DNA of 64,000 nt, from the NCBI RefSeq assembly GCF_028368995.1, contig NZ_JAQNDL010000001.1, forward strand, positions 608,001 to 672,000. Direction: 5' to 3'. Positions 4,545 to 62,064 of the stretch are shown piece after piece; the stretch's first letter is position 1, and every line of letters starts with the position of its first letter. The notes below the pieces were generated by a model that was given only the letters and a program-made list of their open reading frames with translations, ran no database searches and was not told where the DNA came from. The translations under genes were made by a program, and so were the position numbers. Origin of the DNA: Nannocystis bainbridge. GTDB lineage: Bacteria > Myxococcota_A > Polyangia > Nannocystales > Nannocystaceae.

Positions 4545-7405
4545 GCCGGGTTCTCCTGCTTCGGGGTGCCGGGGCCGACGGCGTCGCACCACGGGTCGGC
4601 GTCGGTGTTGTCGTTGAGCGCGGGGTTGGAGACGCCGGGGTCGAGCTGGGTGGCGATGTCCTCGCCCTGGCTGGTGGCCCACTGCACGGCGTCGAGCACC
4701 AGCTCGCCGACCGCCAGCGAGATGGCGCCGGCCGAGTTGGCGAGCGAGAACCCGAACGCGGCGTCGACCGCCGGCAGGCCGCCGTTGATCGCGGGGTCGA
4801 GCTTGCGGGCCAGCAGCGCCCGGCTGCCGGCGGTGACGGCGATGCAGTTGGCGCCGCCGAGGGTCTTGGCGGCCGTCAGCTCGGCGGGCGTCGGCGCGAA
4901 CTTCGACAGCGCCTTGACGTTGTTGAGGTCGACGTCGGCGTTGGCCAGCACCTCGAACCACTCGCGGTCGGTCTCGGTGCCCGAGGGGTTGGCGAGGAAC
5001 TCGGTGATGACGAGGTCGCCGACGCCGGGCGAGTGCTTCTCGCGCATGGCGTTCAGCTCGGCGTCGAAGCAGGGGTCGACGAAGCCGCCGCCGCAGGCCG
5101 CGTTCATCGCGCCCGGGCTGCCCTTGTCGGTCGCGTTGTAGAGCGCCGCGGCGAAGCAGAGGTTGTCGGGGACGTCGTTGACGGCCACGTCGAGCGCGCC
5201 GGGGGTGATGAACTCGAGCGAGAGCTGGGTCGACGCGCCGTCGCTGGTGCTGGCGTAGGCGACGTGGTCGAGCTCGACCCCGCCGTGGCCGACGAACAGG
5301 CCGCCGTTCGAGTTGCCGAGGCTGATCTTGGTGACGAACCGCGGCGCCGGCAGGCCGCCGTTGACGGCGGGGTCGCCCGAGCGGGCGAGCAGGACCGATT
5401 CACCGGGCTTCACCTCGAGGCAGTCGCCGGCGACCGGCACGAAATCGCCGACGGTGTACGGGTCCCACACCTTGCCGATCTCGAGGCCGTTGAGGTCGAA
5501 CTCGCCGTCGGCGAACAGCTCGAACCACTCGCCCGCGGTGTCGCCGACGGACTTGGGGTTGGCCATCCACTCGCTGATCAGCAGCTCGCCGGCCTGCGGC
5601 GGGTCGATCGGGCGCGGCTGCTGGGTGTCGGGGTCGGTGCACTGGCCGGTCGGCGGCGGGCCGTTGCACACGCTGTTGTCGGCGCCGGGCGTGCCGAGGT
5701 CGGTGTTGAACGGGGCGTACGGGACGGCCGCGTCGCAGCGGGCCTCGGCCGGGTCGTTGAGCGCCGGGTCGAGCGACATCGTGAACGCGTCGATGACCGC
5801 GGGGTCGACCTGGCGGGCCACGCCGTCCTTGGGCGAGTCGTACGGCATGCTGTCGAGCTCGACCCCGCCGGCGCCGATCCACAGGTTGCCGCTGGTGTTG
5901 CTGAGCTGCAGGCTGGCGTAGCTGGCCGCCGGGGCCAGCATGTCGCCGGTGGCGCCGCTGCGGGCCAGCAGGACCAGGCCGGGGCCGACCGACTGGCACG
6001 CGCCGCCGGGGAAGGTGAAGCTGATCGACTCGGCCGACTTGCCGAGCTGGAGGCCGTTGAGGTCGAAGCTCACCGGGGTGAAGAACTCGATCCACTCGCC
6101 GGCCGGCTCGCCGATGGCGGCCGAGGTGTTGGCGTGGACCTCGGTGATGAAGATGTCCCCGGGGACAGGTGCGACCGCCTCGCGGACGGCGCCGCCGTCG
6201 TCGCACGGGTTCTTCAGGCAGATCGGGTTGGGCGCGCCGGGGGTGCCGAGGTCGCCCTCGGCGAACGACTCGTAGGCGAGGCAGAAGTTGGCCGGGTCGT
6301 CGTTGCCGGCGACGGTGGTGGCGCCGGGGTCGAGGCTCCAGGCGATGCCGTCTTTGGGGCTCGGGTAGTGGATCTCGTCGAGGATCTGGTCGCCGTAGGC
6401 GATGAACACCCCGGGGCTCGGGTTCGAGTCGCTGGCGCTGTCGTTGAGCGTCAGCTTCATGACCACGTCGGTCGCTTCCCACGCCTTTTGCGAGAACAGC
6501 ACGGTGTCGCCGGCGCCGACCTTGAAGCACTCGGGCTGCTGCAGCACCTGCGCGTTCTTCTTGTCGGCGGCGAACTTGGTGGTGTTGCTGCCGTACTGCA
6601 GGCAGTTGAGGTCGAACGCGCCGTCGGTGACCTGCAGCTCGAACCACTCGCCGACGGTCATGGTGGTGAGGCCGGCGTTGGCCATGACCTCGGTGATCAC
6701 CAGCTGGCCGGCCTGCGGGGCGATCGCGTCGCGCAGGGCGCCGCCGTCGTAGCACTGGCCGCACGACTCGGGGGCCGCCAGCGGGCAGGCGGCGTTGGGC
6801 TGGCGCGGCGAGCCGAACTCGCTGGTGAAGTAGGGCTCGCCGTCGGTCGGCGCGGTGCACCACTGCGCGAAGTCGTCGTTGGCGGTCGCGTCGGGCGTGA
6901 CCTGGCCGTCGAGGGTCGTGCTGACGCCGTCCTTGATGCGGGTCGCGTCGTAGATGACCTCGTCGACGACGACGTTGCCGCAGCGGACCGTCAGCATGCC
7001 CGAGGTGTTGGACATCGAGCCGAGGTCGGTGCCGTAGCCGTAGTCGATGTACTCGGGGCGGGTCTCGTCGGTGACGGCGCCGAAGGTCATGTAGGCGCCC
7101 GGCGGGACCTCGACGTTGCCCTGGATCAGGTGGCCCTTGGCGTCGGTGCCGTCGGCCCGGCTGTAGACCAGGCCGACGCCGCTCAGGCTGACCGCCGTGC
7201 TGCTCGGGTTGTGGACCTCGAGCCACTCGATGCCGTCGGCGTCGCTGCCCTTGGGGTCGGGCATGTACTCGGTGATCACCAGCTCGCCGCCGCGCAGGGC
7301 GGCCACGCAGCTGCCGGCGTCGGTGTCGCTGGTGGCGTTGCTGTCGCCGCAGCCGGGGGCGACGGAGACGACGAGGGCGAGGCGGGCGAGCGTGCGGCGG
7401 TTCAT
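4535..7405 (-). CDS. Lipoprotein with five lamin-tail-domain (LTD)-like repeats
   Basis: MNRRTLARLALVVSVAPGC; five units starting GELVITEYM/GQLVITEVM/GDIFITEVH/GELLISEWM/GDLVITEFL, each with EW(L/F/I)E and ending G(S/T)PxxxN. Confidence 0.88.
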   Translation of the reverse strand: MNRRTLARLALVVSVAPGCGDSNATSDTDAGSCVAALRGGELVITEYMPDPKGSDADGIEWLEVHNPSSTAVSLSGVGLVYSRADGTDAKGHLIQGNVEVPPGAYMTFGAVTDETRPEYIDYGYGTDLGSMSNTSGMLTVRCGNVVVDEVIYDATRIKDGVSTTLDGQVTPDATANDDFAQWCTAPTDGEPYFTSEFGSPRQPNAACPLAAPESCGQCYDGGALRDAIAPQAGQLVITEVMANAGLTTMTVGEWFELQVTDGAFDLNCLQYGSNTTKFAADKKNAQVLQQPECFKVGAGDTVLFSQKAWEATDVVMKLTLNDSASDSNPSPGVFIAYGDQILDEIHYPSPKDGIAWSLDPGATTVAGNDDPANFCLAYESFAEGDLGTPGAPNPICLKNPCDDGGAVREAVAPVPGDIFITEVHANTSAAIGEPAGEWIEFFTPVSFDLNGLQLGKSAESISFTFPGGACQSVGPGLVLLARSGATGDMLAPAASYASLQLSNTSGNLWIGAGGVELDSMPYDSPKDGVARQVDPAVIDAFTMSLDPALNDPAEARCDAAVPYAPFNTDLGTPGADNSVCNGPPPTGQCTDPDTQQPRPIDPPQAGELLISEWMANPKSVGDTAGEWFELFADGEFDLNGLEIGKVWDPYTVGDFVPVAGDCLEVKPGESVLLARSGDPAVNGGLPAPRFVTKISLGNSNGGLFVGHGGVELDHVAYASTSDGASTQLSLEFITPGALDVAVNDVPDNLCFAAALYNATDKGSPGAMNAACGGGFVDPCFDAELNAMREKHSPGVGDLVITEFLANPSGTETDREWFEVLANADVDLNNVKALSKFAPTPAELTAAKTLGGANCIAVTAGSRALLARKLDPAINGGLPAVDAAFGFSLANSAGAISLAVGELVLDAVQWATSQGEDIATQLDPGVSNPALNDNTDADPWCDAVGPGTPKQENPACP

Positions 7406-7437
7406 GGTCGGATCTCGGTCTCGCCCGGGCGGGCGGT

Positions 7438-8706
7438 TCAGCGGGGCGTCCTGCCCTCGCGGTCGGCGGAGCGCTCGATGATGGCGTCGGCGCGAGCGTC
7501 GGCCGCGTCCTGCTTGGCGGTGTTCGGGGAGTTCTCGGCCGGCGCTTCCGGCTCGGCCACGTCGGCGGCGCCCTCGGGCGCGGGCGAGTCTTGCGGCGCC
7601 GGCTCCGGCGCGGGCTCGGCGTCGGCCTTGGTCTCGGTCTCGTCGACCGGCGCCAGCACCTCGCGCTGGATCTGCCCCGGCATCGTCACCACGATCTGCA
7701 GCTCGTCCTGCTTCTTGTACTTGTTGAAGTACTTGGTGATGACGCCGCGGGCGACCACGAACTCGCCGCGGGCCTCGACCGCGCCGGAGCGGGCCAGGAC
7801 ATCCTTGTCGAAGAAGATCAGCGGCAGGCTGCCGGTGCGGCGGCGGCTGAGCAGGACCTTGGTCGGGCCGGCGGTCTCGCGGACGTCGCCGATGGCGCCG
7901 AGGATCACGACCTCGCGGCCGACCTTGCCCTGCAGGCGGTCGAGCGCGTCCCAGTGGGTCAGGACGATCCAGTTGGGGTGGTCGGCGGCTTGCAGCTCGA
8001 ACGCCTGGATGAAGTCGCCGCGGCGGTTCCACCACTCGAGGCGGCGGTCGTAGTCGGTGTAGTGCTGCTTGCTCGGGTCCCAGATGCCGCGCTTGGCCGC
8101 GCGGGCCTCCTCCTGGGCGGCCACGAACTCCTTGTGGAACCGGCGCGAATAGCCGTACTTGCTGAAGTACGGGCTCATGCCGGCGCGCACGCACTCGACG
8201 TTGTAGTTGTAGGTCTTGCCGTCCTTCTCGACGAACACGTACGCGAGGTAGCGGTTGTAGAAGTCGCGGATCTCCTTGGGGTGATCGCGCTCGAGCCGGA
8301 CGGTGCGCACGCCGTGGAAGAAGGCCTCGGCGTACTTCTTGGCCTCCTCGCCCATCGGCGTCGGGATCTTGACCGGGCTCTTCGTCTTGGCCTGGGCCTC
8401 GGCGAGGTAGCGCTCCCAGCCCTTGTCGAACTCCATGTACTCGGACTTGCGCTTGAAGGTCTCCTCGGTGTCGAGGCCCAGCAGGCGCATGCTGGCGTCG
8501 AGGCCGGCGACGCGGATGGTGTCGCCGTCGGTGACCTTCATCAGCGGGAACTCGCCGATCACCAGCGCGGCGTCGTTGCCCTTGGACAGGCTGGCGGCGA
8601 CGGTGGTGCGGTCGAACCGGTGGACCACCGGGTTGCAGGCCAGCGCCGCCGCGGCCGCGACGACGAGCAGCAACATATGTCCGAACGACCATGTCTTCAG
8701 GGACAT
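7438..8706 (-). CDS. Thermonuclease (SNase family) lipoprotein with probable C-terminal OB-fold and acidic tail
   Basis: Lipobox AALAC; VTDGDTI, MRLLGLDTEE, DFYNRYLAYV, AKRGIW; downstream VVILGAIGDV...VARGVITKY...ELQIVV resembles an OB-fold. Confidence 0.88.
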   Translation of the reverse strand: MSLKTWSFGHMLLLVVAAAAALACNPVVHRFDRTTVAASLSKGNDAALVIGEFPLMKVTDGDTIRVAGLDASMRLLGLDTEETFKRKSEYMEFDKGWERYLAEAQAKTKSPVKIPTPMGEEAKKYAEAFFHGVRTVRLERDHPKEIRDFYNRYLAYVFVEKDGKTYNYNVECVRAGMSPYFSKYGYSRRFHKEFVAAQEEARAAKRGIWDPSKQHYTDYDRRLEWWNRRGDFIQAFELQAADHPNWIVLTHWDALDRLQGKVGREVVILGAIGDVRETAGPTKVLLSRRRTGSLPLIFFDKDVLARSGAVEARGEFVVARGVITKYFNKYKKQDELQIVVTMPGQIQREVLAPVDETETKADAEPAPEPAPQDSPAPEGAADVAEPEAPAENSPNTAKQDAADARADAIIERSADREGRTPR

Positions 8707-8710
8707 GTGG
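8673..8710. repeat. 14-bp-phased GGACATGTCC-like array (3 units)
   Basis: ACATATGTCC 8673, GACCATGTCT 8687, GGACATGTGG 8701. Confidence 0.7.
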
Positions 8711-12762: not shown

Positions 12763-12842
12763 TGACCTGGCGCCCGGGACATGTCTGAAGCGACAGGCTC
12801 TTCGGGACCTGCCGCATCGGACATGTCCGCCGGGACAGCCCG
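12763..12842. repeat. 14-bp-phased motif array between convergent genes (6 units, partly degenerate)
   Basis: Units at 12763, 12777 (GGACATGTCT), 12791, 12805, 12819 (GGACATGTCC), 12833, all containing GAC at the same phase. Confidence 0.75.
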
Positions 12843-17636: not shown

Positions 17637-19045
17637 GCGAGCCGGCCCTGCGGCCCCGCCTGGCCGGCCTGTCCCGCTGGCGCCGCGGCCTGTTCGGCCG
17701 CGTGTTCTTGACCTTCTTCGCCGCCGTACTGGCGTTCGTGGCGCTGGCCTCGATCGTCCAGTTCGCCACCCGCGAGCGCCACGACGCCGGGTGGGTCGAG
17801 ACCACCGACGCCGCGGTCGAGGCCCACAAGCCGGCGCTGCTGGCCGCGCTGGCCGGCGACGGCGACCTCGAGGCCACGGTCGCGACCCTGGCCCGCGCGC
17901 TCGAGCTGCGCCTGGCCCTGCGCGACCTGGACGGCGCCCACCTCGCCGGCGACCGAAGCACGCCGCCGCTGCGCCCGCTGCGGCCGCGCCAGCGCAGTCG
18001 GCTCGAGCGCGGCGCGCCGGTGATGCTGCGCGAGAAGTCGGGCGAGCCGCAGCTGGCGTTCGCTATCGGCGACCGGGCGGTGCTGATCGCCGACACCGGC
18101 GATCACGCCAGCCGGCGCAACCGCAACCTCGCGCTCGGCGTGCTCGGCCTGGTCGGGCTGCTCGGCGCCTCGGCGTGGCTGCTGGCGCGCTCGCTGACGC
18201 GGCGGCTGGCGCTGCTCGAGGACGGCGCGGGCCGCATCGCTCGCGGCGAGCTCGGGCACCGCGTGAAGGTCGACCCACGCGGCGACGAGATCGATCGCCT
18301 GGGCCAGGAGATGAACGACATGGCCTATCAGCTCGGCGAGCTGCTCCGCGGCCAGCGCTCGCTGCTGACCAATGTCTCGCACGAGCTCAAGACCCCGATC
18401 GCCCGCCTGCGCGTGCTCGCCGAGCTGCTGACGGAGCGCGCCGAGACGCTGCCCGAGCACCCGGCGAGCGTGCGGATCCGCCAGGGCGCGCTCGAGCTCG
18501 AGCAGGACCTGAGCGAGCTGGCCACGCTCGTGCAAGACCTGCTGACCTCGGGCCGGCTCGAGCTGTCGGGCCCGCACGCCTCGCCGGTGCAGCGCACGCC
18601 GATCGACCTGGCGCCGTTCCTGGCCCGCCTCGGCGCGCCGGTCGCCGCCGAGGTCGAGGTGACGCCGCCCGAGCTGACGCTGGTCGGCGACCCGCTGCTG
18701 CTCGACCGCCTGATCACCAACCTGCTGAGCAACGCCCGCCGCGCCTGTCCGCAAGGACATGTGTGGCTCACGGCCAACAGCGGCGGCGAAGGCGTCACGA
18801 TCGCGGTCGAGGACGAGGGTTCGGGGATCCCGCCGGCCGAGCGGGCGCGCGTGTTCGAGGCGTTCTACCGCCTCGACGACGCCCGCGCGCGCGACCACGG
18901 CGGCGCCGGCCTCGGACTCTACTTGTGCGCGCAGATCGCTCGCGCCCACGGCGGCACGATCGCCGCCGAGGGCCGCGCGCACGGCTCCGGCGCCCGCCTG
19001 GTGGTCCGCTTGCCGCTCGCTGGCCCGCCCGCGGCCGTGCTATAG
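17633..19045 (+). CDS. HAMP sensor histidine kinase
   Basis: GTGA overlap with the regulator; two TM helices; SHELKTP H-box, NLLSNA, DEGSGI, GAGLGL. Confidence 0.93.
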   Translation: MSEPALRPRLAGLSRWRRGLFGRVFLTFFAAVLAFVALASIVQFATRERHDAGWVETTDAAVEAHKPALLAALAGDGDLEATVATLARALELRLALRDLDGAHLAGDRSTPPLRPLRPRQRSRLERGAPVMLREKSGEPQLAFAIGDRAVLIADTGDHASRRNRNLALGVLGLVGLLGASAWLLARSLTRRLALLEDGAGRIARGELGHRVKVDPRGDEIDRLGQEMNDMAYQLGELLRGQRSLLTNVSHELKTPIARLRVLAELLTERAETLPEHPASVRIRQGALELEQDLSELATLVQDLLTSGRLELSGPHASPVQRTPIDLAPFLARLGAPVAAEVEVTPPELTLVGDPLLLDRLITNLLSNARRACPQGHVWLTANSGGEGVTIAVEDEGSGIPPAERARVFEAFYRLDDARARDHGGAGLGLYLCAQIARAHGGTIAAEGRAHGSGARLVVRLPLAGPPAAVL

Positions 19046-19715: not shown

Positions 19716-20261
19716 GTGCGTCGCTGCGGGATCCAGGCTGTCCTTTGCGCCCTGTCCCTCGGCGCATGTCCTGAAGACCAGGCCCAGGACCCGCTCGACC
19801 CGGAGCTGCTGATCGCGCTGAGCGAGGCCGGCGGCGACGGCCGCGGCGAGGCGCACAGCGGCCGCTACGTCACCACCGGCGAGGTGCTCGAGTGCGACTG
19901 CCCGACGCGCATGGGCGTCGACCTGTGCGGCGGCGGCTCGGCCCAGCTGATCGGCATCGACGGCCCGGCCAAGGTCGTGCAGATCGATGGGTGGCTGACC
20001 TTCCAGCCCGAGGTCGCGGCGCTGCCGTGGGCGCTGTCCGGCGCGATCGACCGCGACCGCGGCTTCGCCCTCGGCGGCATCTCGGGGCTGGCCATCGGCC
20101 TGTTCACGGTCGGCCTCTACGCCCGCTTCGACGGCGAGTTCACGGCCGAGGGCGGCCTGCGCGGGGAACTCGCCCATCGCCTGCTCGGCGAGCTCCCCGA
20201 CGGCCGCATCGACTGCCGCACCACCTACGCAGTGACGGGCGCGCGCACACCCGACGCCTGA
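19716..20261 (+). CDS. Hypothetical lipoprotein
   Basis: Lipobox LSLGAC; coding-type codon bias. Confidence 0.7.
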   Translation: MRRCGIQAVLCALSLGACPEDQAQDPLDPELLIALSEAGGDGRGEAHSGRYVTTGEVLECDCPTRMGVDLCGGGSAQLIGIDGPAKVVQIDGWLTFQPEVAALPWALSGAIDRDRGFALGGISGLAIGLFTVGLYARFDGEFTAEGGLRGELAHRLLGELPDGRIDCRTTYAVTGARTPDA

Positions 20262-21241: not shown

Positions 21242-23260
21242 CTACTCCGCCTCGCCCGGCGGGTGGAACACGTAGTTGTGCTGGGCCTGGCGGGCCGCGC
21301 GGGGGAACTCGAGCCGCAGCACCACCTTGCGCAGGCAGTCCGACAGCGGGCTCGGTGCCATGCGCAGCTTCAGCACCTTGCCGCCGCGGCCGACCAGCGC
21401 GACGACTTCGACGTCGCCCGGCCCGTGCTCGTCGTAGCACTGGCGGACCCGCGGCGAGCGGTTGGTCCGCAGCAGGACCTTGCGGAAATCGCCTGCGCTC
21501 AGCTGATCGGCGCCGCCGTTGCCGGGCGCCGCGTCGTCGATCGCCTCGCCGGCCGAATCGACCGCCACCAGATCCTCCTCGGGGGCCGGCGTCGGCGTCG
21601 GCGCGGCCGGCTCGGGCTGGGCCACCCGCGCCAGCGTGGATGCCTCTTGGGACATGTCCGAACGGCCAGCCGTCGGCGTCGCCGGCGACTCTGGTTTCGG
21701 CGGGTGGTTGATCGCCGGCGGCGTGCCCGGCTTGTCGGCGGTGGCCCAGGCCTGCAGGCGCCAGCCGATCAGCGCGCACAGCCCCGCGATCACCAGCAAC
21801 CCGAGGGCCAGCTGGGTGTTGTTGCGGCTGGCGGGCGCCGGGCCGGCCCAGGTCGGCTCGACGCGGGTCGCCGGCGTCGTCATCGACGCGGTCACCGGGG
21901 CGCTGGGGGCCGTCGTCGAGGCGCTGAACGACAGCGACGGCCGCTCGCTCGCGTTCGGCGGCGGGATGATGAACGCCCGCGGGTCGCTCAACGAGGCCTG
22001 GGGCTCGCTGGCGGGCTCGGGCGCGGGCGCGGGCGGCGACGCGGCCGCGGCCGCGGCCGACAGCGGCGATGCGGCCACCGGCGGCGCCGTCGGCGGGCGC
22101 AGCGGCGGCTTGGTCGCCGGCCGGCTCGCCGACCTGGCGGGCCGACTGTCGGGCTTGCTGGCCGGCTTCGCCTCGGCGCGGCTCTCTTGCTTGCTCGCCG
22201 GCTTGCTGGCCCGCACCGGCGTCGCGGCCGCCTCGGGCTCGAGCTCCTCGACCAGCGCCGAGAGCGACGTGAGCGACGAGGCCGACAGCCCCTCGGGCTC
22301 GTCGTCCCTGACGTCGGGCAGCTCGGGCTCGACCTCGTACGACAGCACCGCCAGGTTCGGCGGCGGCTCGATGCGATGCAGGCCGGTGTCGATCGTGACC
22401 TGCCCCTTCGACGGTCGGTACGGCAGGTCGGCGCTCTCGAACACCTGGTCCCACGCCGAATCGATGGCGCCCTCGGCGTGCTGCGCCGCGTCGGCGACCC
22501 CTGGCCGTAGCGCATCGATCTCGGCGGCGCGCAGCTGCTGCGCCCACTCGGCCGCGCTCGGCCGCGAATGCCCGCGGACAACCTGCGCGATCGGGGCCAG
22601 CCACGGCGCCTCGGCCTCGCCCTTGCCGACCACCTCGAGCAGCACCGCCGCCAGCATCGACACGTCGGCCGACACGGCCGGCTCGGCGCCGGACAGGTGC
22701 GACGGCGCCTGCACGTCGAGGTCGACCAGCTTGACCCCGGCGTGGCTCCACACCAGGTTGCCCGGCGAAATCGCCCCGTGCGGGGCCCCGAGCGCGTGCA
22801 GCGTGGCCAGGCCCTCGGCCAGCTCGGCCGCCAGCTTGAGCAGGCCGGCGCCCTCGAAGCGTGGGTCGTTCTCGGCGTGGTAGAGGTTCTTGCCCTCCGC
22901 GTGCTCCATCACGGCGTACCACAGGCCGCCCATGGTGCCCTCGGCGAGAACCGCGGCGACGCACGGGTGGCGCACGCCGAGGCGCCTGCGGGCCCGCTCG
23001 GCGATCCGTCCGACCACCTCGCGCTGCTCCGGCGCCGCCAACACCTTGACCACCACCTGCTGGTTGCTGGCCTGGTCGCGGCCCGAGTAGACGCAGCCGA
23101 GGTCGCCGGAGCCGAGCAGCTCGGTCAGCACGTAGCGGCCGCCCAGCACGTGGCCGCGCAGGTCGCCGAGCACCTCGACCTCGGACGGCTTGCCGCCCTG
23201 CCCGACCGGCCCGCCGAGCATCTCCGGCAGCGGATCCTCGTCGAGCGGGATCGAGTGCAT
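21242..23260 (-). CDS. Membrane Ser/Thr pseudokinase with AgmX/TonB-C-like C-terminal domain (start uncertain)
   Basis: LGSGDLGCVY and VVKVL present, but HRD is HGA and DFG is DLD; TM helix; VRQCY...SDCLRKVVLRLEFP. Confidence 0.75.
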   Translation of the reverse strand: MHSIPLDEDPLPEMLGGPVGQGGKPSEVEVLGDLRGHVLGGRYVLTELLGSGDLGCVYSGRDQASNQQVVVKVLAAPEQREVVGRIAERARRRLGVRHPCVAAVLAEGTMGGLWYAVMEHAEGKNLYHAENDPRFEGAGLLKLAAELAEGLATLHALGAPHGAISPGNLVWSHAGVKLVDLDVQAPSHLSGAEPAVSADVSMLAAVLLEVVGKGEAEAPWLAPIAQVVRGHSRPSAAEWAQQLRAAEIDALRPGVADAAQHAEGAIDSAWDQVFESADLPYRPSKGQVTIDTGLHRIEPPPNLAVLSYEVEPELPDVRDDEPEGLSASSLTSLSALVEELEPEAAATPVRASKPASKQESRAEAKPASKPDSRPARSASRPATKPPLRPPTAPPVAASPLSAAAAAASPPAPAPEPASEPQASLSDPRAFIIPPPNASERPSLSFSASTTAPSAPVTASMTTPATRVEPTWAGPAPASRNNTQLALGLLVIAGLCALIGWRLQAWATADKPGTPPAINHPPKPESPATPTAGRSDMSQEASTLARVAQPEPAAPTPTPAPEEDLVAVDSAGEAIDDAAPGNGGADQLSAGDFRKVLLRTNRSPRVRQCYDEHGPGDVEVVALVGRGGKVLKLRMAPSPLSDCLRKVVLRLEFPRAARQAQHNYVFHPPGEAE

Positions 23261-28627: not shown

Positions 28628-28849
28628 CCTGTCCCGAGCGACCTCCCCGAAAGGACAGGTCGGATCGGCCAGTCGATGACGTCGGCGAGTGCGGTTCGCG
28701 GCCCCTCGCCCCCAAAACACGCGCATGGAGGCAATGACGGATCGGTCGTTCGCTTCTCACGCGTCGCCCGCGGGGGTAAGTTCGACCGACCTACGAACCG
28801 GCTTGCTTACGGACTCCCGGCCGTCTTTCCCGGCCTGATCGGCACCGCC

Positions 28850-35472: not shown

Positions 35473-35525
35473 CCCGAAGGCCAGGTCCGCAATGCTCGGA
35501 CCTGTCCCCGGGGACACCTCGCGAA

Positions 35526-36704: not shown

Positions 36705-37228
36705 CCTCGTCCTGTCTCGAACAGCGGGCGGACCTCGCCCGCGGGCCCGCGCCGCGGCAGCATTCGCCGCAGCAGCGCCAGCGGAAAGAGCACGTACGGC
36801 GCATACAACAGCGCCACCAGCCACGGCACCGTCGGCCGCGGCTCGCCGAAGGTGTGCACCCCGAGGAAGATCACCATCGAGTAGAGCATCACCGACGCGT
36901 AGATGATCGCGGGCCAGCGGATCCACTCGCGCCGGCGCACCAGCGCGACCGCCAGCACCGCGTAGAACGGCCCGAACACGAAGGCCGACACGCACGACGC
37001 GATCTGCAGCCACAGCGGGTTCAGCACGATCAGCGGATCGTAGGTGCTGCCCCACCAGTAGAAGAAGCCGCGCAGCCCCTCCGTCGCCGGCGCCATCGGC
37101 CCCGGCTCGAGCGCGGCCATGCGGTCGAACAGCAGCGACGTGCTGCAGAAGCTGAGCGCGAACACCAGCAGGACGCGGTCGATCCAGCGCACCTGGACAT
37201 GTCCCTCGTGACCTGTCACGTCCGCCAT
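36701..37228 (-). CDS. EXPERA/EBP-like (sterol isomerase/TMEM97 family) membrane protein
   Basis: Four TM helices; YDPLIVLNPLWLQ...FVFGPFY; YAPYVLFPL. Confidence 0.7.
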   Translation of the reverse strand: MADVTGHEGHVQVRWIDRVLLVFALSFCSTSLLFDRMAALEPGPMAPATEGLRGFFYWWGSTYDPLIVLNPLWLQIASCVSAFVFGPFYAVLAVALVRRREWIRWPAIIYASVMLYSMVIFLGVHTFGEPRPTVPWLVALLYAPYVLFPLALLRRMLPRRGPAGEVRPLFETGRG

Positions 37229-37246
37229 GTCCTCTCGCTCATGTCC
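37195..37246. repeat. 14-bp-phased motif array spanning a stop/start junction (4 units)
   Basis: GGACATGTCC 37195, TGACCTGTCA 37209, CGCCATGTCC 37223, GCTCATGTCC 37237. Confidence 0.8.
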
Positions 37247-40344: not shown

Positions 40345-40396
40345 GGACATGTCCTCCAGGGCATGGCCTCAAGGACATGCCCCATCGAGCATGTCC
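40345..40396. repeat. 14-bp-phased motif array between convergent genes (4 units)
   Basis: GGACATGTCC 40345, GGGCATGGCC 40359, GGACATGCCC 40373, GAGCATGTCC 40387. Confidence 0.9.
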
Positions 40397-41237: not shown

Positions 41238-43256
41238 GTGCCGGTCCCCCCCGACCTCCGCGCCCTGCTCGACGCTTTCTTCGCGCCTGCCCCCGGAGCC
41301 GGGCCGCTCGCGCTCCTGCACGCCGCGGCCGAGCTGCGCGCGCGCTCGAGCGGCGCGCTCACGAGCGGCGCGATGTTCGAGCTCCAGCGCCCGCTCGTGG
41401 GCGGCCCCTGGTGCCCGCGGCTGTTCGGCCCCATCGAGTCGCTGCGCTGCGGCTGCGGCCGGCTCGTCGGCCCCGAGCACCGCGGCGAGACCTGCGAGGG
41501 CTGCCACGTGCTCTGCACCGACGAGCCCCTGCGCGACCGACGAGTCGCCCACCTCGAGGTCTCGTTCGGCCTGGTCCACCCGGCGCTCGCGCCCCGCATC
41601 GCCGACCTGCTCGGCCTCGACTTCGATGAGCTGCGCGCCGTGCTGCTCGGCGAGGCCGTGTTCCTCGCCGACGGCCAGTTGGTCGCGCACGAGCACCACG
41701 GCATCGACTGGGACGACGAGATGTCCTACGAGACAGGTGTGGCCGCGATCCGCCGGCGCCTGGCGACCGCCGTCGATCCCGAGCTCGCGGCCGCCGGCCT
41801 GTCCGCCACGGCCCTCGTGCTCACCAGCGTGCCGATCCCGCCGCCCGGCGAGCGCCCGCTGGTTCACTCGCCGCACCTCGACGAGGACCGGTGGTTCCGC
41901 GAGCTGTGGTCGGTGCAGGTCGGCCGCGACAACGAGGCGATCGCCGCGCTGGCCGCCCGCGCGCTCCGCAGCGAGCGCCTGCTCGAGCTCGGGGCCCCGA
42001 AGATCCTGCTGGACCGCGACTGCGCCGAGGCCCAGCAGGACTTCGAGGCCATGCTCGAGCTGCTGGCGCGCCCGTCCGACGACCCCGGCCGCGCCCCCGA
42101 TCCGCGGCTGTCCGGCTGGCGCCCCGCCCCGCACCTCGGCGACGACGCGGACCACGTCCCCGGCGCTCCCTATCGGTTCCGCCTCGCCGGCGCCCCGCCG
42201 GTCAGCGAAGCGGACGACCGCGACACCCACCACCGCGCCCCGCTGCGCCCCGAGGTCCCGCGCGCCTGCGTGCTCGCCGACGGCGACCGCGCCCTGATCC
42301 AGCTCGGCTACGCGCTGCTGCTCGTGCACTGGCCCACGGGACATGTCCTTTGGGTCATGCCGGCGGCCGAGGCCCGGCTGCTCGGCGCGCGCGGCGACTG
42401 GGCCCTGTTCGGCGCCAAGTACGGGCGCCAGCTCGACGCCGAGGATCCGACGCTGCTGCACGGCCTTTACGCCCTCGACCTGTCCTCCGGGACATGGCTC
42501 GAAGGCCCTTATCCGGACCACCTGCCGGCGATCTTCGTCGAGAAGGGCGAGCCCGAGGACGCGTGGCTGTCCGACTGGCGCGGCCAGCGAGGGGCCCCGG
42601 GCGCCGAGGACCTCTCGGGCGACCGCCCCGACGAGTGGGCCCGCAGCCCCGATCACCGCTTCGTGTGGATGTCGTCGAGCCCCGACGACGGCGCCGTCCT
42701 CGACAGCGAGCGCGGCGTCGCAGTGCTCATGATCAGCCAGATGCGCGAGCCGGCCGCGGACGATGTGCCGACGGTCGCGCTGACCGGCCCCGAGCGCGAC
42801 GAGAACGGGGAGATCGAGCATCAAGTCGCCCCGGGCATCGCCCTCGCCCGGGTCGGCGAGGAGTGGCGGATCCTCGTGCCGGGCGGCCTGCTGCGCCGCG
42901 ACGGCCAGGTCGCGCTCGAGTTCACCGAGGCCGCGATCGAGGGCGCCAGCTTCGACAGCGCCGGCGCGCGCCTGCTGCTGGTCAACCGCGAGGCGCTGCA
43001 CGTCGTCGAAGTCGAACGGGGGCAGCTGCTCGGGCAGCTCGACCTGCGCCCGCTGGGGCCCGCGCTGGCGCTGCCCGAGTGCGTGCCGGAGGCGCTCGCC
43101 GACCTCGTCCTGGCCCACCACGGCACCCTGGCCGCCGCCCTCACGCAGCCCGACGACGCCCTGCGCGCGCTCGGCCTCGACGACGAACAGCTGGCCGCTC
43201 TGCGCGCCGAGCGACCGCCGCCGCTGCCGGGCCAGCTCGATTCGACATGCCCTTGA
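41238..43256 (+). CDS. Protein with N-terminal RNA polymerase beta-prime clamp-like domain and unrelated C-terminus
   Basis: CPRLFGP..CGC-x12-CEGC, RRVAHLE, LVLTSVPIPPPGERPLV and RLLELGAPKIL align with RpoC N-terminal motifs; no NADFDGD. Confidence 0.8.
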   Translation: MPVPPDLRALLDAFFAPAPGAGPLALLHAAAELRARSSGALTSGAMFELQRPLVGGPWCPRLFGPIESLRCGCGRLVGPEHRGETCEGCHVLCTDEPLRDRRVAHLEVSFGLVHPALAPRIADLLGLDFDELRAVLLGEAVFLADGQLVAHEHHGIDWDDEMSYETGVAAIRRRLATAVDPELAAAGLSATALVLTSVPIPPPGERPLVHSPHLDEDRWFRELWSVQVGRDNEAIAALAARALRSERLLELGAPKILLDRDCAEAQQDFEAMLELLARPSDDPGRAPDPRLSGWRPAPHLGDDADHVPGAPYRFRLAGAPPVSEADDRDTHHRAPLRPEVPRACVLADGDRALIQLGYALLLVHWPTGHVLWVMPAAEARLLGARGDWALFGAKYGRQLDAEDPTLLHGLYALDLSSGTWLEGPYPDHLPAIFVEKGEPEDAWLSDWRGQRGAPGAEDLSGDRPDEWARSPDHRFVWMSSSPDDGAVLDSERGVAVLMISQMREPAADDVPTVALTGPERDENGEIEHQVAPGIALARVGEEWRILVPGGLLRRDGQVALEFTEAAIEGASFDSAGARLLLVNREALHVVEVERGQLLGQLDLRPLGPALALPECVPEALADLVLAHHGTLAAALTQPDDALRALGLDDEQLAALRAERPPPLPGQLDSTCP

Positions 43257-43294
43257 GGCCATGTACAATTCTTCATGTCCTAAGAGACATGCCC
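43243..43294. repeat. 14-bp-phased motif array at a gene 3' end (4 units)
   Basis: CGACATGCCC 43243, GGCCATGTAC 43257, CTTCATGTCC 43271, AGACATGCCC 43285. Confidence 0.85.
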
Positions 43295-43668
43295 GAAGCG
43301 ACAGCTTCGCCCGCCGCTCGGTGATGGCGCCCGCAGGATCGCCGGCGGACGCGTGAAGGCGAACTGCGCCGCGCGAACCCGACCGCTCGACCGCTACGAA
43401 ATGGATCGAGACACCGCCATGCGCGCCGCGGTTTCTCTGTCGTCGCTCGTATCGACCCCTTGCTCGCGGGAGGACCTCACCACCGCGGCGACCCCCGGCG
43501 CGGCGCGGTTCGGCCTGAAACTTCGGGTCGACGGCAAGGGTCGTCATCGCCGTCGAGGGCCGCCATCGCGGCTGTTTTCGCGGGAGCGCCGCGCGGCCTC
43601 GATGCAGCGAATTCCCCATCGCGTTCGACTTGCTCGCCGGGCCACGATCGATCATTCTCCATCCCCGT

Positions 43669-44612: not shown

Positions 44613-44663
44613 GAACATGCCCGGGAGGACATGCTCTTCCAAGATGTCCTGTCAAACATGTCC
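44613..44663. repeat. Motif array between convergent genes (4 units; spacings 14, 13, 14)
   Basis: GAACATGCCC 44613, GGACATGCTC 44627, CAAGATGTCC 44640, AAACATGTCC 44654. Confidence 0.75.
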
Positions 44664-44679
44664 GATGTGACAGCCGACG

Positions 44680-46437: not shown

Positions 46438-46606
46438 CGTGTGCTCTCCGTCCGCACCTGGAGTACCCGCGCCGGTGCGGCGAATTGCGAGATGACGAAA
46501 CCCGGCCGTGCGCCGGGTCGGGGGCGCTCGGCCCTGGGCGCGCCCTCGTCCCCATACGCACATGTCCCGGGGGACAGGTCGCTCGCGCGCTCGGGACCAA
46601 CGAGAA

Positions 46607-48904: not shown

Positions 48905-49100
48905 GCGCATGCCCGAAGGAGCATGTCCTTTCGGGCACGTCCCGTGCTGGCGTGGCTCCGCCAGCTCCCGGCTCCGCCCCCGACCGACGACGCCCGTTCG
49001 TGGATCCGCGCCGCGGCTCCTCGACTGGCCGAATGCGCATGTCCCTACGGACATGCCCCTTTGCGCATGCCCGATCGGGCATGCCCTCTCAGACATGCCC
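48905..49100. repeat. Two 14-bp-phased motif arrays between convergent genes (3 + 5 units)
   Basis: Units at 48905, 48919, 48933; then GCGCATGTCC 49035, GGACATGCCC 49049, GCGCATGCCC 49063, GGGCATGCCC 49077, AGACATGCCC 49091. Confidence 0.92.
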
Positions 49101-61295: not shown

Positions 61296-62064
61296 CGGCC
61301 CTCGAAACGACGTCGCTACGCCCATGAGAGAGCTGCTGTTCGGCGCGCCACCGGACGCAGGCTCCTTCTCCGTCGACGACGACGCCCGCTCCATCACGCG
61401 GCCTCGTGGACCCTCGCCGGTGAGGGTCGTTTCGACCGTTACGGCGCCGACATGAGCTGACCGGCCGCCGCCCCATGAATGCGCGCATCGTTCATTCACG
61501 GCCTCGTGTATGCCGCGACATGCGTCAGAAATGTGCTGACGTGGATCTACGGTTCGCGCCACCCAGGGGGGACGCGGCCCCGCGACGGACCCTTTTGCCC
61601 CCACCCGCCGCTGCGACACGCCATCCTTATAGAAGGATGACGCCCATCCGTCTCCGATCGCGCGCCGGTGATCGCACGCCGGGCGACCGGCCCGCGGTCC
61701 GCCCGCGGTGAAAACCCAACAGCACCCTCGCACACGGCGATTCGCGCTATTTAAGCGAATCCCGACGCCGCCGCTATGACCAATCGTTCATGCCCCGAAT
61801 GACATGTCCTTCCCGCCACGAATGGCCTGTCGGCGCGGAACGGCGCCGCCGCGGAACGGCGAGAGATCTCCGGCGCGCGGATCCGCGGTGTGCACAATCA
61901 TCCGCGAATCGGGCCTTGGCCTGCGGGCCGGTCGGTTAATGTTCGAATCGGCGATCGTTATCGACCTGCGGACCCGCGATTCGCTCGCCAGCGAGCCGAT
62001 CGTCGCCCATGCAGTACGCGGATTCCCTATTACGCCTCGAATCGACGTCCACTAATCTCGTTCC

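What the first reader, a model, noticed from the sequence alone, without database searches (positions are those of the whole stretch)
6149..61809. Window-wide palindromic motif laid out on a 14-bp lattice
Seen: GGACATGTCC-like decamers recur in arrays at 14-bp spacing (one 13-bp step at 44627-44640) at 8673, 12763, 19734, 28625, 30596, 37195, 40345, 43243, 44613, 48905 and 49035. Pairs 14 bp apart occur at 6149, 18741, 25777, 33030, 35498, 42339, 42476, 46558 and 61786. The 4-nt linkers vary freely while phase is held. In most pairs the inner halves are best conserved, giving TGTCC-N4-GGACA, so the arrays read as concatemers of a 14-bp dyad. The longest arrays lie at convergent 3' ends, and short ones are embedded in coding sequence. 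Inference: binding sites for an abundant, cooperatively polymerising DNA-binding protein (nucleoid organiser, termination roadblock or self-DNA mark), not simple slippage repeats. I know of no description of it.
Basis: partly seen in the sequence, partly recalled or inferred. Interest (0 to 1): 0.87.

Follow-up and report, generated by a model that had tools for sequence, protein, structure and literature searches.

The report
Clade-specific 14-bp dyad repeat arrays
This myxobacterial genome carries thousands of copies of one strictly spaced 14-base inverted-repeat word, strung head to tail just after gene ends, which looks like an undescribed genome-wide protein-binding and gene-end signal.

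Summary
In the 11.05-Mb genome, TGTCC-N4-GGACA occurs 1987 times, against 0-16 at each other spacer from 0 to 10. Abutting dyads give GGACATGTCC (956 copies) and autocorrelation peaks at 14, 28, 42, 56, 70 and 84 bp.

- **Range:** the lattice is confined to Nannocystis and close relatives.
- **Placement:** arrays sit about 30 nt after stop codons. They occur in 639 of 1432 convergent, 631 of 4354 tandem and 88 of 1454 divergent intergenic regions.
- **Coding copies:** 790 exact dyads lie in called genes, in all three frames. Their arms are conserved above background.
- **Islands:** non-syntenic DNA almost lacks the dyad.
- **Recognition:** fixed spacer length, near-invariant G2/C13, tolerated mid-arm mismatches and strand symmetry point to duplex-DNA recognition by a dimeric protein.
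- **Hairpins:** intergenic arrays also carry extra complementarity between units.

No binding protein was found, and no RAYT or PadR gene. My searches found no description in print. Best reading: protein-bound dyad arrays that double as bidirectional gene-end elements (confidence 0.45).

The parts
30596..30731 (.). Longest array in the window: 7 GGACATGTCC-type units on the 14-bp lattice, with a 42-bp super-period (two units plus 14 bp of filler). It lies between convergent genes 28850-30550(+) and 30748-32298(-).
   Evidence: RNA fold -84.4 kcal/mol, z -7.3. The orthologous intergenic regions in G005 and G003 also hold lattice units, but in different number and sequence.
49035..49100 (.). Array of 5 units (GCGCATGTCC, GGACATGCCC, GCGCATGCCC, GGGCATGCCC, AGACATGCCC) between convergent genes 47671-48882(+) and 49112-53263(-).
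   Evidence: RNA fold z -4.8. Flanking genes carry DUF2330 and Ser/Thr kinase domains.
48905..48942 (.). Array of 3 units in the same convergent intergenic region, starting 23 nt after the stop of gene 47671-48882.
   Evidence: RNA fold z -2.41.
40345..40396 (.). Array of 4 units starting 13 nt after the stop of the enoyl-CoA hydratase gene 39532-40332(+). The next gene, 40876-41181(-), is convergent.
   Evidence: Nested hairpin, z -4.05.
12763..12842 (.). Array of 6 lattice units, several degenerate or of the CAGG/CCTG type, between convergent genes 11770-12741(+) and 12845-13696(-, LysR family).
   Evidence: RNA fold z -3.83.
44613..44672 (.). Array of 4 units with the one 13-bp step (44627 to 44640), between convergent genes 43696-44472(+) and 44680-46425(-).
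   Evidence: RNA fold z -1.86.
43243..43303 (.). Array of 4-5 units that begins 13 nt before the stop of gene 41238-43256(+). The next gene, 43696-44472, is on the same strand.
   Evidence: RNA fold z -1.65.
37195..37255 (.). Array of 4 units filling the 46-nt gap between same-strand genes 37239-38666(-) and 36701-37192(-).
   Evidence: RNA fold z -2.64.
28625..28662 (.). Short array of 3 units. The first, TGACCTGTCC, contains the TGA stop of kinase gene 25682-28627(+).
19734..19785 (.). Degenerate array of 3-4 units, 34 nt after the stop of gene 19053-19700(+). It falls inside the first 70 nt of a weakly supported ORF call, 19716-20261, which has no Pfam match.
8673..8710 (.). Three units spanning the 20-nt gap between same-strand genes 8697-9269(-) and 7438-8676(-).
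18746..18759 (.). Single exact dyad TGTCC-GCAA-GGACA inside the HATPase_c domain coding region of histidine-kinase gene 17633-19045(+).
   Evidence: The Pfam HATPase_c match covers residues 352-463, and the dyad falls at about residue 371.
6154..6167 (.). Single exact dyad inside gene 4535-7405(-).
25782..25795 (.). Single exact dyad near the 5' end of Ser/Thr kinase gene 25682-28627(+), at about residue 34.
33035..33048 (.). Single exact dyad inside ORF 32880-33482(-), which has no Pfam match.
35503..35516 (.). Single exact dyad in the convergent intergenic region 35472-35586, 31 nt after a stop codon.
   Evidence: The orthologous G010 region also holds one.
42330..42357 (.). Two abutting one-mismatch dyads sharing an exact GGACATGTCC, inside gene 41238-43256(+).
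42481..42494 (.). Single exact dyad inside gene 41238-43256(+).
46563..46576 (.). Single exact dyad in the intergenic region 46425-46655 between same-strand genes.
   Evidence: It is conserved in G010.
61786..61809 (.). Degenerate pair of units (GTTCATGCCC cgaa TGACATGTCC) in the intergenic region 61295-62065.
21650..21668 (.).

Best explanation
The basic element is a 14-bp dyad, TGTCC-N4-GGACA, confined to Nannocystis and two sister genera. I propose that a dimeric protein, not yet identified, reads it as duplex DNA. The two near-invariant bases, G2 and C13, lie 11 bp apart, about one helical turn.

Dyads are scattered over the resident genome, coding sequence included. Downstream of genes they are joined head to tail with no gap, which produces the GGACATGTCC decamers and the 14-bp lattice. 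These arrays sit about 30 nt after stop codons, mostly between convergent genes. I propose they mark or insulate the ends of transcription units in both directions, by bound protein acting as a roadblock, by the strong nested hairpins their transcripts can form, or by both.

**Shown here:** existence, geometry, lattice, distribution, taxonomic range, conservation and hairpin potential.

**Inferred:** the binding protein, any cooperative polymerisation and the effect on transcription.
For: **Geometry is as strict as protein binding would require**
- Spacer N4 gives 1987 copies, N3 gives 16 and N5 gives 5. Abutment at N0 gives 956, against 4-19 for gaps of 1-10.
- Spacer sequences are diverse, and adjacent linkers are identical in only 5.8% of 654 pairs. 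The phase is therefore held by constraint, not by recent copying.

**Information lies in the sequence, not the stem**
- Among 1211 one-mismatch dyads in tandem intergenic regions, G2 and C13 are changed 9 and 8 times. The mid-arm positions 3 and 12 are changed 220 and 274 times, to any base.
- When dyads are oriented by transcription, there is no consistent excess of changes that would leave G-U rather than A-C pairs. Spacer composition also stays symmetric.

**Coding copies are real and maintained**
- 790 exact dyads lie in called genes. Of these, 443 are deep in well-supported coding sequence, in all three frames and with varied peptides. One lies inside a Pfam HATPase_c domain.
- Arms are fully conserved in relative G010 for 65 of 100 own dyads, against 44.2% of frame-matched controls. 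In the reverse direction 65 of 81 are conserved, against 47.1% of random coding controls that were not frame-matched (p about 2e-9).
- The spacer is less conserved than control positions.
- Coding dyads show no extended complementarity.

**Gene-end placement**
- Arrays of 2 or more units occur in 639 of 1432 convergent, 631 of 4354 tandem and 88 of 1454 divergent intergenic regions.
- They lie a median 29-34 nt from the stop codon. In tandem regions 549 of 743 are closer to the stop than to the next start.
- 1350 of 2468 convergent gene ends carry a dyad with up to 1 mismatch, whereas only about 7% carry a hairpin followed by a T-run.

**Hairpin layer, in intergenic arrays only**
- Complementarity between adjacent units averages 3.356 against 3.099 in shuffles (sd 0.016). 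Perfect 10-bp complementarity occurs 198 times, against 61 in one shuffle.
- Six of the eight window arrays folded have z of -2.4 or below.

**Heritable and clade-specific**
- Presence at orthologous intergenic regions agrees with G010: for convergent regions, 55 both, 28 neither, 15 own only and 6 G010 only.
- The dyad is enriched in genera g1, g2 and g4 only.
- It is depleted 7.4-fold in non-syntenic DNA.
Against: - No binding protein was found. The neighbours of dyad-rich promoter regions gave no recurrent DNA-binding family. The genome has no PadR domain although the dyad fits ATGT-N8-ACAT.
- The outer-arm complementarity between adjacent units in intergenic arrays is not predicted by a dimer bound to one dyad. 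It is better explained by intrastrand pairing.
- Copy number varies about tenfold within sister genus g4 (67-696 exact dyads), which resembles an expanding repeat more than a fixed set of sites.
- The first, smaller conservation sample showed no excess: 8 of 18 against 42%.
- Only 8 of 102 tRNA genes have a dyad downstream, and dyads are not mutually exclusive with canonical-like terminators.
- Gene positions come from my own codon-score caller (7999 genes, 83% coding), not a standard annotation.
Confidence: 0.45

Rival explanations
1. A REP/BIME-like repeat family that acts purely through structure. Pairs of units form 24-nt stem-loops in RNA or single-stranded DNA. These end transcripts or protect mRNA 3' ends. 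The family spreads by duplication or by hairpin-templated copying, with no dedicated duplex-DNA-binding protein.
For: - Placement matches REPs: just after stop codons, enriched between convergent genes, rare in divergent regions, and in longer intergenic regions.
- Arrays have strong fold energies.
- Intergenic unit pairs have excess complementarity, with perfect 10-bp stems 198 times against 61. In G005 the orthologous site holds GGACAGGTCC-ccaa-GGACCTGTCC, a compensated stem.
- A minority of arrays are recent expansions, such as the 19-unit array at C3:552675.
- Copy number varies among relatives.
Against: - 40% of exact dyads (790 of 1987) lie in called genes and are conserved above background.
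- Isolated dyads have only 5-bp arms, tolerate mid-stem mismatches and show no flank complementarity in coding sequence.
- Loop length is fixed while loop sequence is diverse.
- There is no strand asymmetry.
- The genome, estimated 90.5% complete, has no Y1 transposase (RAYT) match.
- No conserved flank or tag lies beyond the dyad.
Confidence: 0.25
2. A self-DNA word that accumulates by molecular drive, like the uptake sequences of Neisseria and Pasteurellaceae. A dimeric receptor of a DNA-uptake or recombination pathway prefers the dyad. Resident DNA therefore gains copies over time, and copies at gene ends are secondarily used as hairpins.
For: - The word is clade-specific, at 333-2090 copies in the Nannocystis genomes searched.
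- 40% of exact copies are in coding sequence (790 of 1987), in frames that suit codon usage. Passages of PMC2346458 report 47-70% for uptake sequences, and inverted-repeat forms proposed as terminators.
- Arms are conserved while spacers are freer.
- The dyad is depleted 7.4-fold in non-syntenic DNA despite more intergenic sequence there.
- ComEC and DprA homologues are present.
Against: - ComEC and DprA ring in 10-11 of 14 control genomes, so their presence says little.
- Known uptake sequences are oriented words rather than dyads, and are not arranged on a gapless lattice (recalled).
- The tight coupling to stop codons and the arrays of up to 8 units (one of 19) are not needed for uptake.
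- No call here produced evidence of natural transformation in Nannocystis.
Confidence: 0.12
3. A highly iterated palindrome tied to DNA modification or repair, in the manner of cyanobacterial HIP1. A methyltransferase or mismatch-repair bias acting at the CATG or TGTCC context would enrich the word.
For: - The palindromic word is over-represented in both coding and non-coding DNA.
- CATG is the most conserved core within arrays.
- The divergent intergenic region richest in dyads (5 exact) adjoins an Eco57I/N6-methylase-like gene of 1332 residues.
Against: - One-mismatch variants show no depletion of the transition neighbours that a very-short-patch type drive would remove.
- A modification site does not explain the N4 spacer rule, the gapless lattice or the placement near stop codons.
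- Enrichment exceeds 100-fold. I recall only modest effects from known repair biases.
Confidence: 0.05
4. A functionless microsatellite-like by-product: 14-bp units expand by slippage wherever sequence is least constrained, and then decay.
For: - Some arrays are clearly recent slippage products, with 12 identical units at C3:552675 and 7 near-identical units at C3:1085854.
- Convergent intergenic regions are the least constrained class.
Against: - At least 90% of adjacent linkers are no more alike than random pairs, yet lags 13 and 15 are about 1% of lag 14. Spacing is therefore under constraint.
- Isolated dyads arise by point change inside genes and are conserved above background.
- Position-specific constraint on G2 and C13.
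- Arrays lie closer to stop codons than to the next start.
Confidence: 0.05

Closest known systems
REP/BIME elements (repetitive extragenic palindromes) of Enterobacteria and Pseudomonas
   Same: - Both are clade-specific and present in hundreds to thousands of copies.
- Both sit after gene ends and between convergent genes, and are rare in promoter regions.
- Both cluster and can form stem-loops.
   Different: - The unit here is a 14-bp dyad on a gapless lattice, with a fixed spacer length but variable spacer sequence.
- 40% of exact copies lie in coding sequence.
- No RAYT gene was found.
- No GTAG/CGTC-type tag or other conserved flank was seen (the tags are known to me only from the title of PMC3733652 in the listing).
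- Mid-stem mismatches are tolerated.
DNA uptake sequences (Neisseria DUS, Pasteurellaceae USS)
   Same: - Both are clade-specific over-represented short words found in coding and non-coding DNA.
- The intergenic forms can make hairpins at gene ends (PMC2346458 passages).
- Here the dyad is depleted in non-syntenic DNA.
   Different: - The word here is a dyad with an unspecified 4-nt centre, not an oriented word.
- Copies abut on a strict 14-bp lattice.
- No link to competence has been shown.
Operator arrays of cooperatively binding dimers (MetJ metboxes, omega-repressor heptads, Fur hexamer arrays) - recalled, not checked in a paper here
   Same: A short symmetric unit is repeated head to tail in fixed register, which in those systems lets neighbouring dimers touch and bind cooperatively.
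   Different: Those are a few promoter-located operators per genome. This one has thousands of copies, is depleted in divergent (promoter) regions and is concentrated after stop codons.
PadR-type operators, ATGT-N8-ACAT
   Same: The extended dyad ACATGTCC-N4-GGACATGT contains ATGT-N8-ACAT. A passage of PMC5050560 gives an 8-nt linker between ATGT and ACAT as the conserved PadR-like motif. ATGTC-N6-GACAT occurs 1458 times here.
   Different: The genome has no PadR domain match at E of 0.001 or better, while 14 of 14 control genomes ring. Coding dyads often carry C rather than A before TGTCC.
HIP1, the highly iterated palindrome of cyanobacteria - recalled
   Same: A short palindrome hugely over-represented in both genes and spacers of one clade.
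   Different: I know of no lattice, spacer rule or gene-end arrays for HIP1. No cognate methylase was tested here.

Membership tests
REP/BIME (RAYT-associated extragenic palindromes) | Strictly extragenic | tested here: not met
   790 of 1987 exact dyads lie in called genes. 443 are deep in well-supported coding sequence, and one lies inside a Pfam HATPase_c domain.
REP/BIME (RAYT-associated extragenic palindromes) | Imperfect palindrome of 20-40 nt able to form a stem-loop | tested here: met
   Unit pairs make 24-nt hairpins. 198 of 3285 intergenic pairs are perfectly complementary over 10 bp, against 61 in one shuffle. Array folds give z from -1.65 to -7.3.
REP/BIME (RAYT-associated extragenic palindromes) | Cognate Y1 (RAYT) transposase gene in the genome | tested here: not met
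   PF01797 gives 0 matches in the own genome (90.5% complete). Controls ring in 6 of 14 genomes.
REP/BIME (RAYT-associated extragenic palindromes) | Conserved tetranucleotide tag or flank beside the palindrome | tested here: not met
   No position outside the dyad and its lattice neighbours exceeds about 55% conservation.
REP/BIME (RAYT-associated extragenic palindromes) | Enrichment after gene ends and between convergent genes | tested here: met
   Arrays occur in 44.6% of convergent, 14.5% of tandem and 6.1% of divergent intergenic regions. The median distance from the stop codon is 29-34 nt.
DNA uptake sequences (DUS/USS) | Clade-specific word at hundreds to thousands of copies, present in coding and non-coding DNA | tested here: met
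   Exact dyads number 333-2090 in g1, 87-169 in g2 and 67-696 in g4. In 13 other genera the count is 11 or fewer, in g32 it is 5-20, and the reversed control gives 0-10. 40% of own copies are coding.
DNA uptake sequences (DUS/USS) | Preferential uptake of DNA that bears the word | not testable with these tools
   This needs a transformation or uptake assay.
DNA uptake sequences (DUS/USS) | Competence machinery present | tested here: inconclusive
   ComEC (143 bits) and DprA (116 bits) are present, but they also ring in 10-11 of 14 control genomes.
Cooperative operator arrays (MetJ/omega/Fur type) | Short symmetric unit repeated in fixed register | tested here: met
   Lag 14 gives 2655 hits against 21 at lag 13 and 10 at lag 15. 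Abutment at N0 gives 956 against 4-19 for gaps of 1-10.
Cooperative operator arrays (MetJ/omega/Fur type) | Located in promoters of a regulon | tested here: not met
   Divergent intergenic regions have the lowest intergenic density, 0.17 arrays per kb against 2.06 in convergent regions.
Cooperative operator arrays (MetJ/omega/Fur type) | Identified cognate binding protein | tested here: inconclusive
   Ten neighbours of dyad-bearing divergent regions were scanned and gave no recurrent DNA-binding family.
PadR operators | ATGT-N8-ACAT inverted repeat | tested here: met
   The extended dyad contains it. ATGTC-N6-GACAT occurs 1458 times. The motif definition comes from a passage of PMC5050560.
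PadR operators | PadR-family protein encoded | tested here: not met
   PF03551 gives 0 matches in the own genome, while controls ring in 14 of 14.
Intrinsic (hairpin plus U-tract) terminators | GC-rich hairpin directly followed by a T-run | tested here: not met
   Only 7.1% (convergent) and 8.7% (tandem) of dyad-bearing gene ends have a hairpin plus T-run. The rates without dyads are 6.6% and 7.7%.
Known RNA families (Rfam 15) | Match at the gathering score | tested here: not met
   0 matches over the whole window.

The most novel reading that the evidence does not exclude
Nannocystis and its nearest relatives use a gene-end system of a kind not yet described. An abundant dimeric DNA-binding protein would load cooperatively on gapless 14-bp dyad lattices. 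Each dimer is turned about 120 degrees from the last, so three dimers span four helical turns. The loaded protein would act as a bidirectional roadblock or insulator between transcription units, in a 71.5% GC genome where only about 7% of gene ends have a canonical-like terminator. The same word, scattered through resident genes and nearly absent from acquired islands, would also serve as a self-DNA signature.
Probability: 0.3. Interest if true: 0.85.

Novelty: new variant of a known kind. Interest (0 to 1): 0.7.

Why it matters
How very GC-rich bacteria such as myxobacteria end transcription is poorly understood. In this genome only about 7% of gene ends show a hairpin plus T-run, while 55% of convergent gene ends carry this dyad.

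The rules of the element are very sharp: a fixed 4-nt spacer, two near-invariant bases, and gapless concatenation. That gives a direct handle for fishing out the factor that reads it. It also allows testing of protein-roadblock against hairpin termination, of insulation between convergent genes, and of self-DNA marking.

In practice, the dyad density separates resident from recently acquired DNA in Nannocystis genomes. It could also supply compact bidirectional terminator parts for engineering myxobacterial natural-product producers.

Tried and rejected
- **Known RNA family:** the Rfam gathering search of the window gave 0 matches.
- **RAYT-mobilised REP:** no PF01797 match in the genome.
no PF03551 match.
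- **Finding the binder from promoter-located dyads:**
  - 100 exact dyads lie in 90 divergent intergenic regions.
  - Ten neighbouring proteins were scanned. They gave an Eco57I/N6-methylase-like protein, a P-type ATPase, a GyrB-like fragment, FG-GAP, PARG and five proteins with no family.
  - The three neighbours of 296-297 residues are not paralogues.
  - No candidate emerged.
- **Protein-motif explanation of coding copies:** rejected, because they occur in all three frames with varied peptides.
- **RNA strand-specific selection:** not seen, neither as a tetraloop bias nor as a consistent excess of changes that would leave G-U pairs.
- **Very-short-patch-like repair drive:** transition neighbours of the dyad are not depleted.
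- **Mutual exclusion with canonical terminators:** not seen.
- **General terminator for tRNA genes:** only 8 of 102 have a dyad downstream.
- **'Dialect' dyads in other genera:**
  - I ran an unbiased scan for 5-Nn-5 inverted repeats on samples of G024 (400 kb), G052 (100 kb), G019 (100 kb) and G022 (42 kb).
  - None showed a comparably spacer-specific family. The G010 control gave 53 against 1. The samples are small.
- **First conservation test:** with 18 aligned coding dyads it showed no excess (8 of 18 against 42%). The larger samples did.
- **RNA evidence:** no RNA holder was listed for window 28800-32300.
- **Earlier findings of this scan:** three look-ups returned nothing.
- **Literature:** six searches found no description of this repeat. 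They used terms such as Sorangium or Nannocystis with palindromic or repeat, and myxobacteria with repetitive extragenic palindromic. Supplements were not open, and subscription papers are not in the library.
- **Viral contigs:** the exact 24-mer occurs in 1 stretch of the whole collection.

Full report

Yes. In the window, GGACATGTCC with up to one mismatch occurs 21 times against 2.0 expected; none of 100 dinucleotide-preserving shuffles reaches 21. TGTCC-N4-GGACA with up to one mismatch occurs 30 times against 1.78 expected; again no shuffle reaches that count.

The window is G000:C1:608001-672000 of an 11.05-Mb, 71.5% GC genome in five contigs.

Genome-wide counts:
- The exact decamer occurs 956 times. 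Nine other palindromic decamers counted the same way give 0-134, and eight control palindromes give at most 61 exact copies.
- Hits with up to two mismatches recur at lags 14, 28, 42, 56, 70 and 84 with 2655, 1235, 953, 461, 193 and 88 pairs. Lags 13 and 15 give 21 and 10. The general background is a few tens per lag.
- An unbiased seed, CATG-N10-CATG, gives 3736. Non-codon lags 10, 11, 13, 16 and 17 give 66-83, and codon-multiple lags 12, 15, 18 and 21 give 262-401.

**2. What is the unit?**

Half-site spacing spectra settle this.
- TGTCC followed by GGACA peaks only at a 4-nt spacer: 1987, against 16 at N3 and 5 at N5.
- GGACA followed by TGTCC peaks at zero spacing (956) and then at 14, 28 and 42.
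- A scan of all 5-mer inverted repeats with spacers 0-10 finds this to be the only spacer-specific family in the genome.
- 1145 of 1987 exact dyads stand alone, but only 196 of 956 exact decamers lack a lattice neighbour.

The element is therefore a 14-bp dyad.

Chaining hits with up to two mismatches gives 1293 two-unit, 401 three-unit, 266 four-unit, 92 five-unit, 27 six-unit, 6 seven-unit and 2 eight-unit arrays, plus one of 19 units.

The spacer is not free. Position 1 is rarely A and position 4 rarely T. CCGA, TTCG and CGAA each take 4-5% of spacers.

**3. Are the arrays slippage products?**

Mostly not. Adjacent linkers are identical in 5.8% of 654 pairs, against 1.2% for random pairs. 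The rest are no more alike than chance. A few arrays are obvious recent expansions, such as the 12 identical units at C3:552675. Because linker sequences are randomised while 13- and 15-bp steps stay near 1% of 14-bp steps, the spacing itself must be under constraint.

**4. Where does it sit?**

No gene finder was installed. I wrote a codon-log-odds caller, which gave 7999 genes and 83% coding. Pfam domains reaching the C-termini of the window's flanking genes support its calls. Those genes are functionally unrelated to one another.

| Intergenic class | Regions with an array of 2+ units | Arrays per kb | Arrays of 3+ units |
|---|---|---|---|
| Convergent | 639 of 1432 | 2.06 | 422 |
| Tandem | 631 of 4354 | 0.62 | 250 |
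| Divergent | 88 of 1454 | 0.17 | 13 |
| Called coding | not counted | not counted | 110 |

(All.)

- In tandem regions the array lies a median 34 nt from the upstream stop and 181 nt from the next start. 549 of 743 are closer to the stop.
- In convergent regions the median distance from a stop is 29 nt.
- 1350 of 2468 convergent gene ends and 806 of 3385 tandem gene ends carry a dyad with up to one mismatch. A hairpin plus T-run is found at only about 7% of gene ends, with or without dyads.
- Only 8 of 102 tRNA genes have a dyad within 120 nt downstream. Several tRNAs are followed by ordinary hairpin plus T-run terminators.

**5. Copies inside genes**

Of the 1987 exact dyads, 790 lie in called genes. 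That is 0.086 per kb, against 1.5 in convergent, 0.62 in tandem and 0.19 in divergent regions.

- 627 are at least 150 nt from either gene end. 443 of these have in-frame coding signal on both sides.
- They occur in all three frames (256, 141 and 46) and encode varied peptides, so they are not a protein motif.
- The window pair at 18741 lies inside a Pfam HATPase_c domain.

To test conservation I fetched 1.6 Mb of relative G010, about 88% identical.
- The arms of own coding dyads are fully conserved in 65 of 100 aligned cases, against 44.2% of 9987 frame-matched controls.
- The 4-nt spacer is less conserved than control positions: 3.26 against 3.65 of 4.
- In the reverse direction, 65 of 81 G010 dyads are conserved in the own genome, against 47.1% of 8000 random coding controls that were not frame-matched (binomial p about 2e-9).
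- A first, smaller sample showed no excess: 8 of 18 against 42%.
- In intergenic DNA, 51 of 162 dyads could be aligned. 21 of those 51 were conserved, against 27.5% of controls.

**6. Duplex recognition or hairpin?**

Evidence for sequence-specific duplex recognition:
- **Fixed spacer.** The length is fixed while the spacer sequence is diverse.
- **Position-specific tolerance.** Among 1211 one-mismatch dyads in tandem regions, G2 and C13 are changed 9 and 8 times. The mid-arm positions 3 and 12 are changed 220 and 274 times, to any base. A 5-bp stem would show the opposite pattern.
- **No strand bias.** When dyads are oriented by transcription, changes that would leave G-U pairs are not consistently favoured over those leaving A-C pairs: 116 against 75 at positions 12 and 3, but 154 against 156 at positions 5 and 10. 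Spacer composition also stays symmetric.
- **No extended pairing in genes.** In coding sequence the flanks are not complementary beyond the 5-bp arms (0.74-0.83 of expectation at offsets 2-4). Adjacent units are also not complementary: 3.024 against 3.037 in shuffles.

Evidence for a hairpin layer in intergenic arrays:
- Adjacent units are more complementary than shuffled partners: 3.356 against 3.099, sd 0.016. Perfect 10-bp complementarity occurs 198 times against 61, while direct identity between units is at expectation.
- Odds ratios for the A/G and T/C variant positions are about 1.8 between units and 0.55 within a unit.
- In G005 the orthologous site of the 30596 array holds GGACAGGTCC-ccaa-GGACCTGTCC, a compensated stem.
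- The eight window arrays folded give z of -7.3, -4.8, -4.05, -3.83, -2.64, -2.41, -1.86 and -1.65.
- Against this, same-type direct repeats of the CAGG or CCTG core variants are enriched more (2.2- and 1.8-fold) than the compensated combinations (1.6- and 1.2-fold).

I therefore read two layers. A sequence-specific dyad is present everywhere, and selection or a hairpin-templated copying process adds stem potential in the arrays at gene ends.

**7. Taxonomic range and dynamics**

- The 24-nt double decamer with up to two mismatches occurs 848 times here and 7-532 times in 10 of 10 genomes of the same genus. Among 30 genomes of other genera, only one has it, with 2 hits. The reversed control is 0 everywhere but one genome.
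- An exact scan of one genome per species across prokaryotes returned 78 stretches. 64 are in records titled Nannocystis, 9 in a Nannocystaceae MAG, 2 in a Myxococcales MAG and 3 are singletons elsewhere. The genus is therefore Nannocystis.
- The dyad alone is also enriched in two sister genera: g2 with 87-169 in 5 of 5 genomes, and g4 with 67-696 in 7 of 7. Genus g32 has 5-20, the 13 other genera have 11 or fewer, and the reversed control gives 0-10.
- Double-dyad lattices are frequent in one g4 genome (239) and rare or absent in the four other g2 and g4 genomes checked: 15, 2, 2 and 0.
- Presence at orthologous intergenic regions agrees strongly with G010. Convergent regions give 55 both, 28 neither, 15 own only and 6 G010 only. 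Tandem regions give 66, 324, 28 and 11. Copy number matches in only 22 of the 55 shared convergent regions.
- Along the first 1.5 Mb of contig 1, syntenic 25-kb bins hold 5.85 exact dyads (41 bins). Non-syntenic bins hold 0.79 (14 bins), although they contain more intergenic DNA. Cold regions elsewhere tend to have lower GC.

**8. What it is not**

| Candidate | Result |
|---|---|
| Rfam family | No match in the window |
| RAYT transposase | No match in the genome |
| PadR domain | No match, although the extended dyad fits the ATGT-N8-ACAT motif quoted in a passage of PMC5050560 |
| Conserved flank that would mark a longer mobile element | None seen |
| Binder among neighbours of dyad-rich promoter regions | None found |
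| Comparable dyad in other genera | None in small samples of four genomes |
| Competence genes ComEC and DprA | Present, but uninformative |

**9. Comparison with known systems**

- **REP/BIME elements.** Placement and hairpin potential resemble them. The defining tests fail: the element is not strictly extragenic, no RAYT gene was found and there is no tag.
- **Uptake sequences.** The coding copies, clade specificity, depletion in islands and hairpin-forming intergenic forms resemble them. Passages of PMC2346458 report 47-70% of copies in coding regions, and inverted-repeat forms proposed as terminators. Those words are oriented and do not sit on a lattice, and uptake could not be tested.
- **Cooperative operator arrays.** The gapless register recalls MetJ, omega and Fur operators (recalled). 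Those sit in promoters, where this element is rarest.

Six literature searches found no description of this repeat. I read only search listings and the passages cited. Supplements were closed, and subscription journals are not in the library.

**10. Verdict**

My best reading (confidence 0.45) is a clade-specific dyad read by an unidentified dimeric DNA-binding protein. It is concatenated after stop codons into arrays that act as bidirectional gene-end elements, with a superimposed hairpin layer.

| Rival reading | Confidence |
|---|---|
| Purely structural, REP-like | 0.25 |
| Uptake-signal-like molecular drive | 0.12 |
| Modification- or repair-linked iterated palindrome | 0.05 |
| Functionless slippage | 0.05 |

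**Limits**
- Gene positions come from a home-made caller.
- Conservation was measured against one relative, through megablast blocks of at least 80% identity.
- The genome is estimated 90.5% complete.
- No expression or binding data were available.

Noticed in passing
G000:C3:552675-552938: The largest array in the genome has 19 lattice units, including 12 identical GGAGCATGTCCTCG units. It is a recent slippage expansion, unlike most arrays.
   Followed up: partly
G000:C1 about 460900-595600 (just upstream of the window) and C1 1.10-1.30 Mb: Two large stretches have no synteny with relative G010. The 1.10-1.30 Mb stretch has lower GC (0.68-0.70); the other is at 0.70-0.71. Both almost lack the dyad, and are probably acquired islands or large accessory clusters.
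   Followed up: partly
G000:C2:1484073-1484727: This divergent intergenic region holds 5 exact dyads that are not on a lattice (spacings 46-98 bp). It lies next to a 1332-residue Eco57I/N6-methylase-like gene (Type IIG or BREX PglX-like) and a 297-residue protein with no Pfam family.
   Followed up: partly
window 34553-34666: A 15/45-bp tandem repeat (TGAACGGCATGCGCA) lies inside gene 34459-35472(+). It is a coding repeat unrelated to the dyad.
   Followed up: no
window 43774-43876 and 57052-57279: Two in-frame coding tandem repeats: a 9-bp unit ACCGACGCC repeated 11.4 times in gene 43696-44472, and 27- and 45-bp units in gene 56983-58473(-).
   Followed up: no
genome-wide; window 30596-30731: Among near-exact decamers, lag 42 is as strong as or stronger than lag 28 (18 against 12 exact; 280 against 259 with one mismatch). 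Some arrays also have a 42-bp super-period. 42 bp is four helical turns, so every third dyad faces the same side. This could equally reflect 42-bp duplications.
   Followed up: partly
G000:C1:20972-21050 and C1:4432153-4432224 (tRNA genes): Ordinary GC-hairpin plus T-run terminators follow some tRNA genes, so the organism does use canonical intrinsic terminators at some sites.
   Followed up: partly
L220:8916-8948 (viral contig): This is the only stretch of the viral collection with the exact 24-mer. It holds a short run of abutting dyads in a 65-67% GC contig, which may be a virus or prophage of a related host.
   Followed up: partly
divergent intergenic regions genome-wide (list): Many single promoter-region dyads share an asymmetric extension (CCTGTCC-N4-GGACATC[T/C]). 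This may mark a distinct subclass or a 5'-leader element.
   Followed up: no
window 62065-64000 and beyond: A very large gene (2506 residues by my caller, running to 69585 in window numbering) starts at 62065 and runs off the window end. I did not examine it.
   Followed up: no
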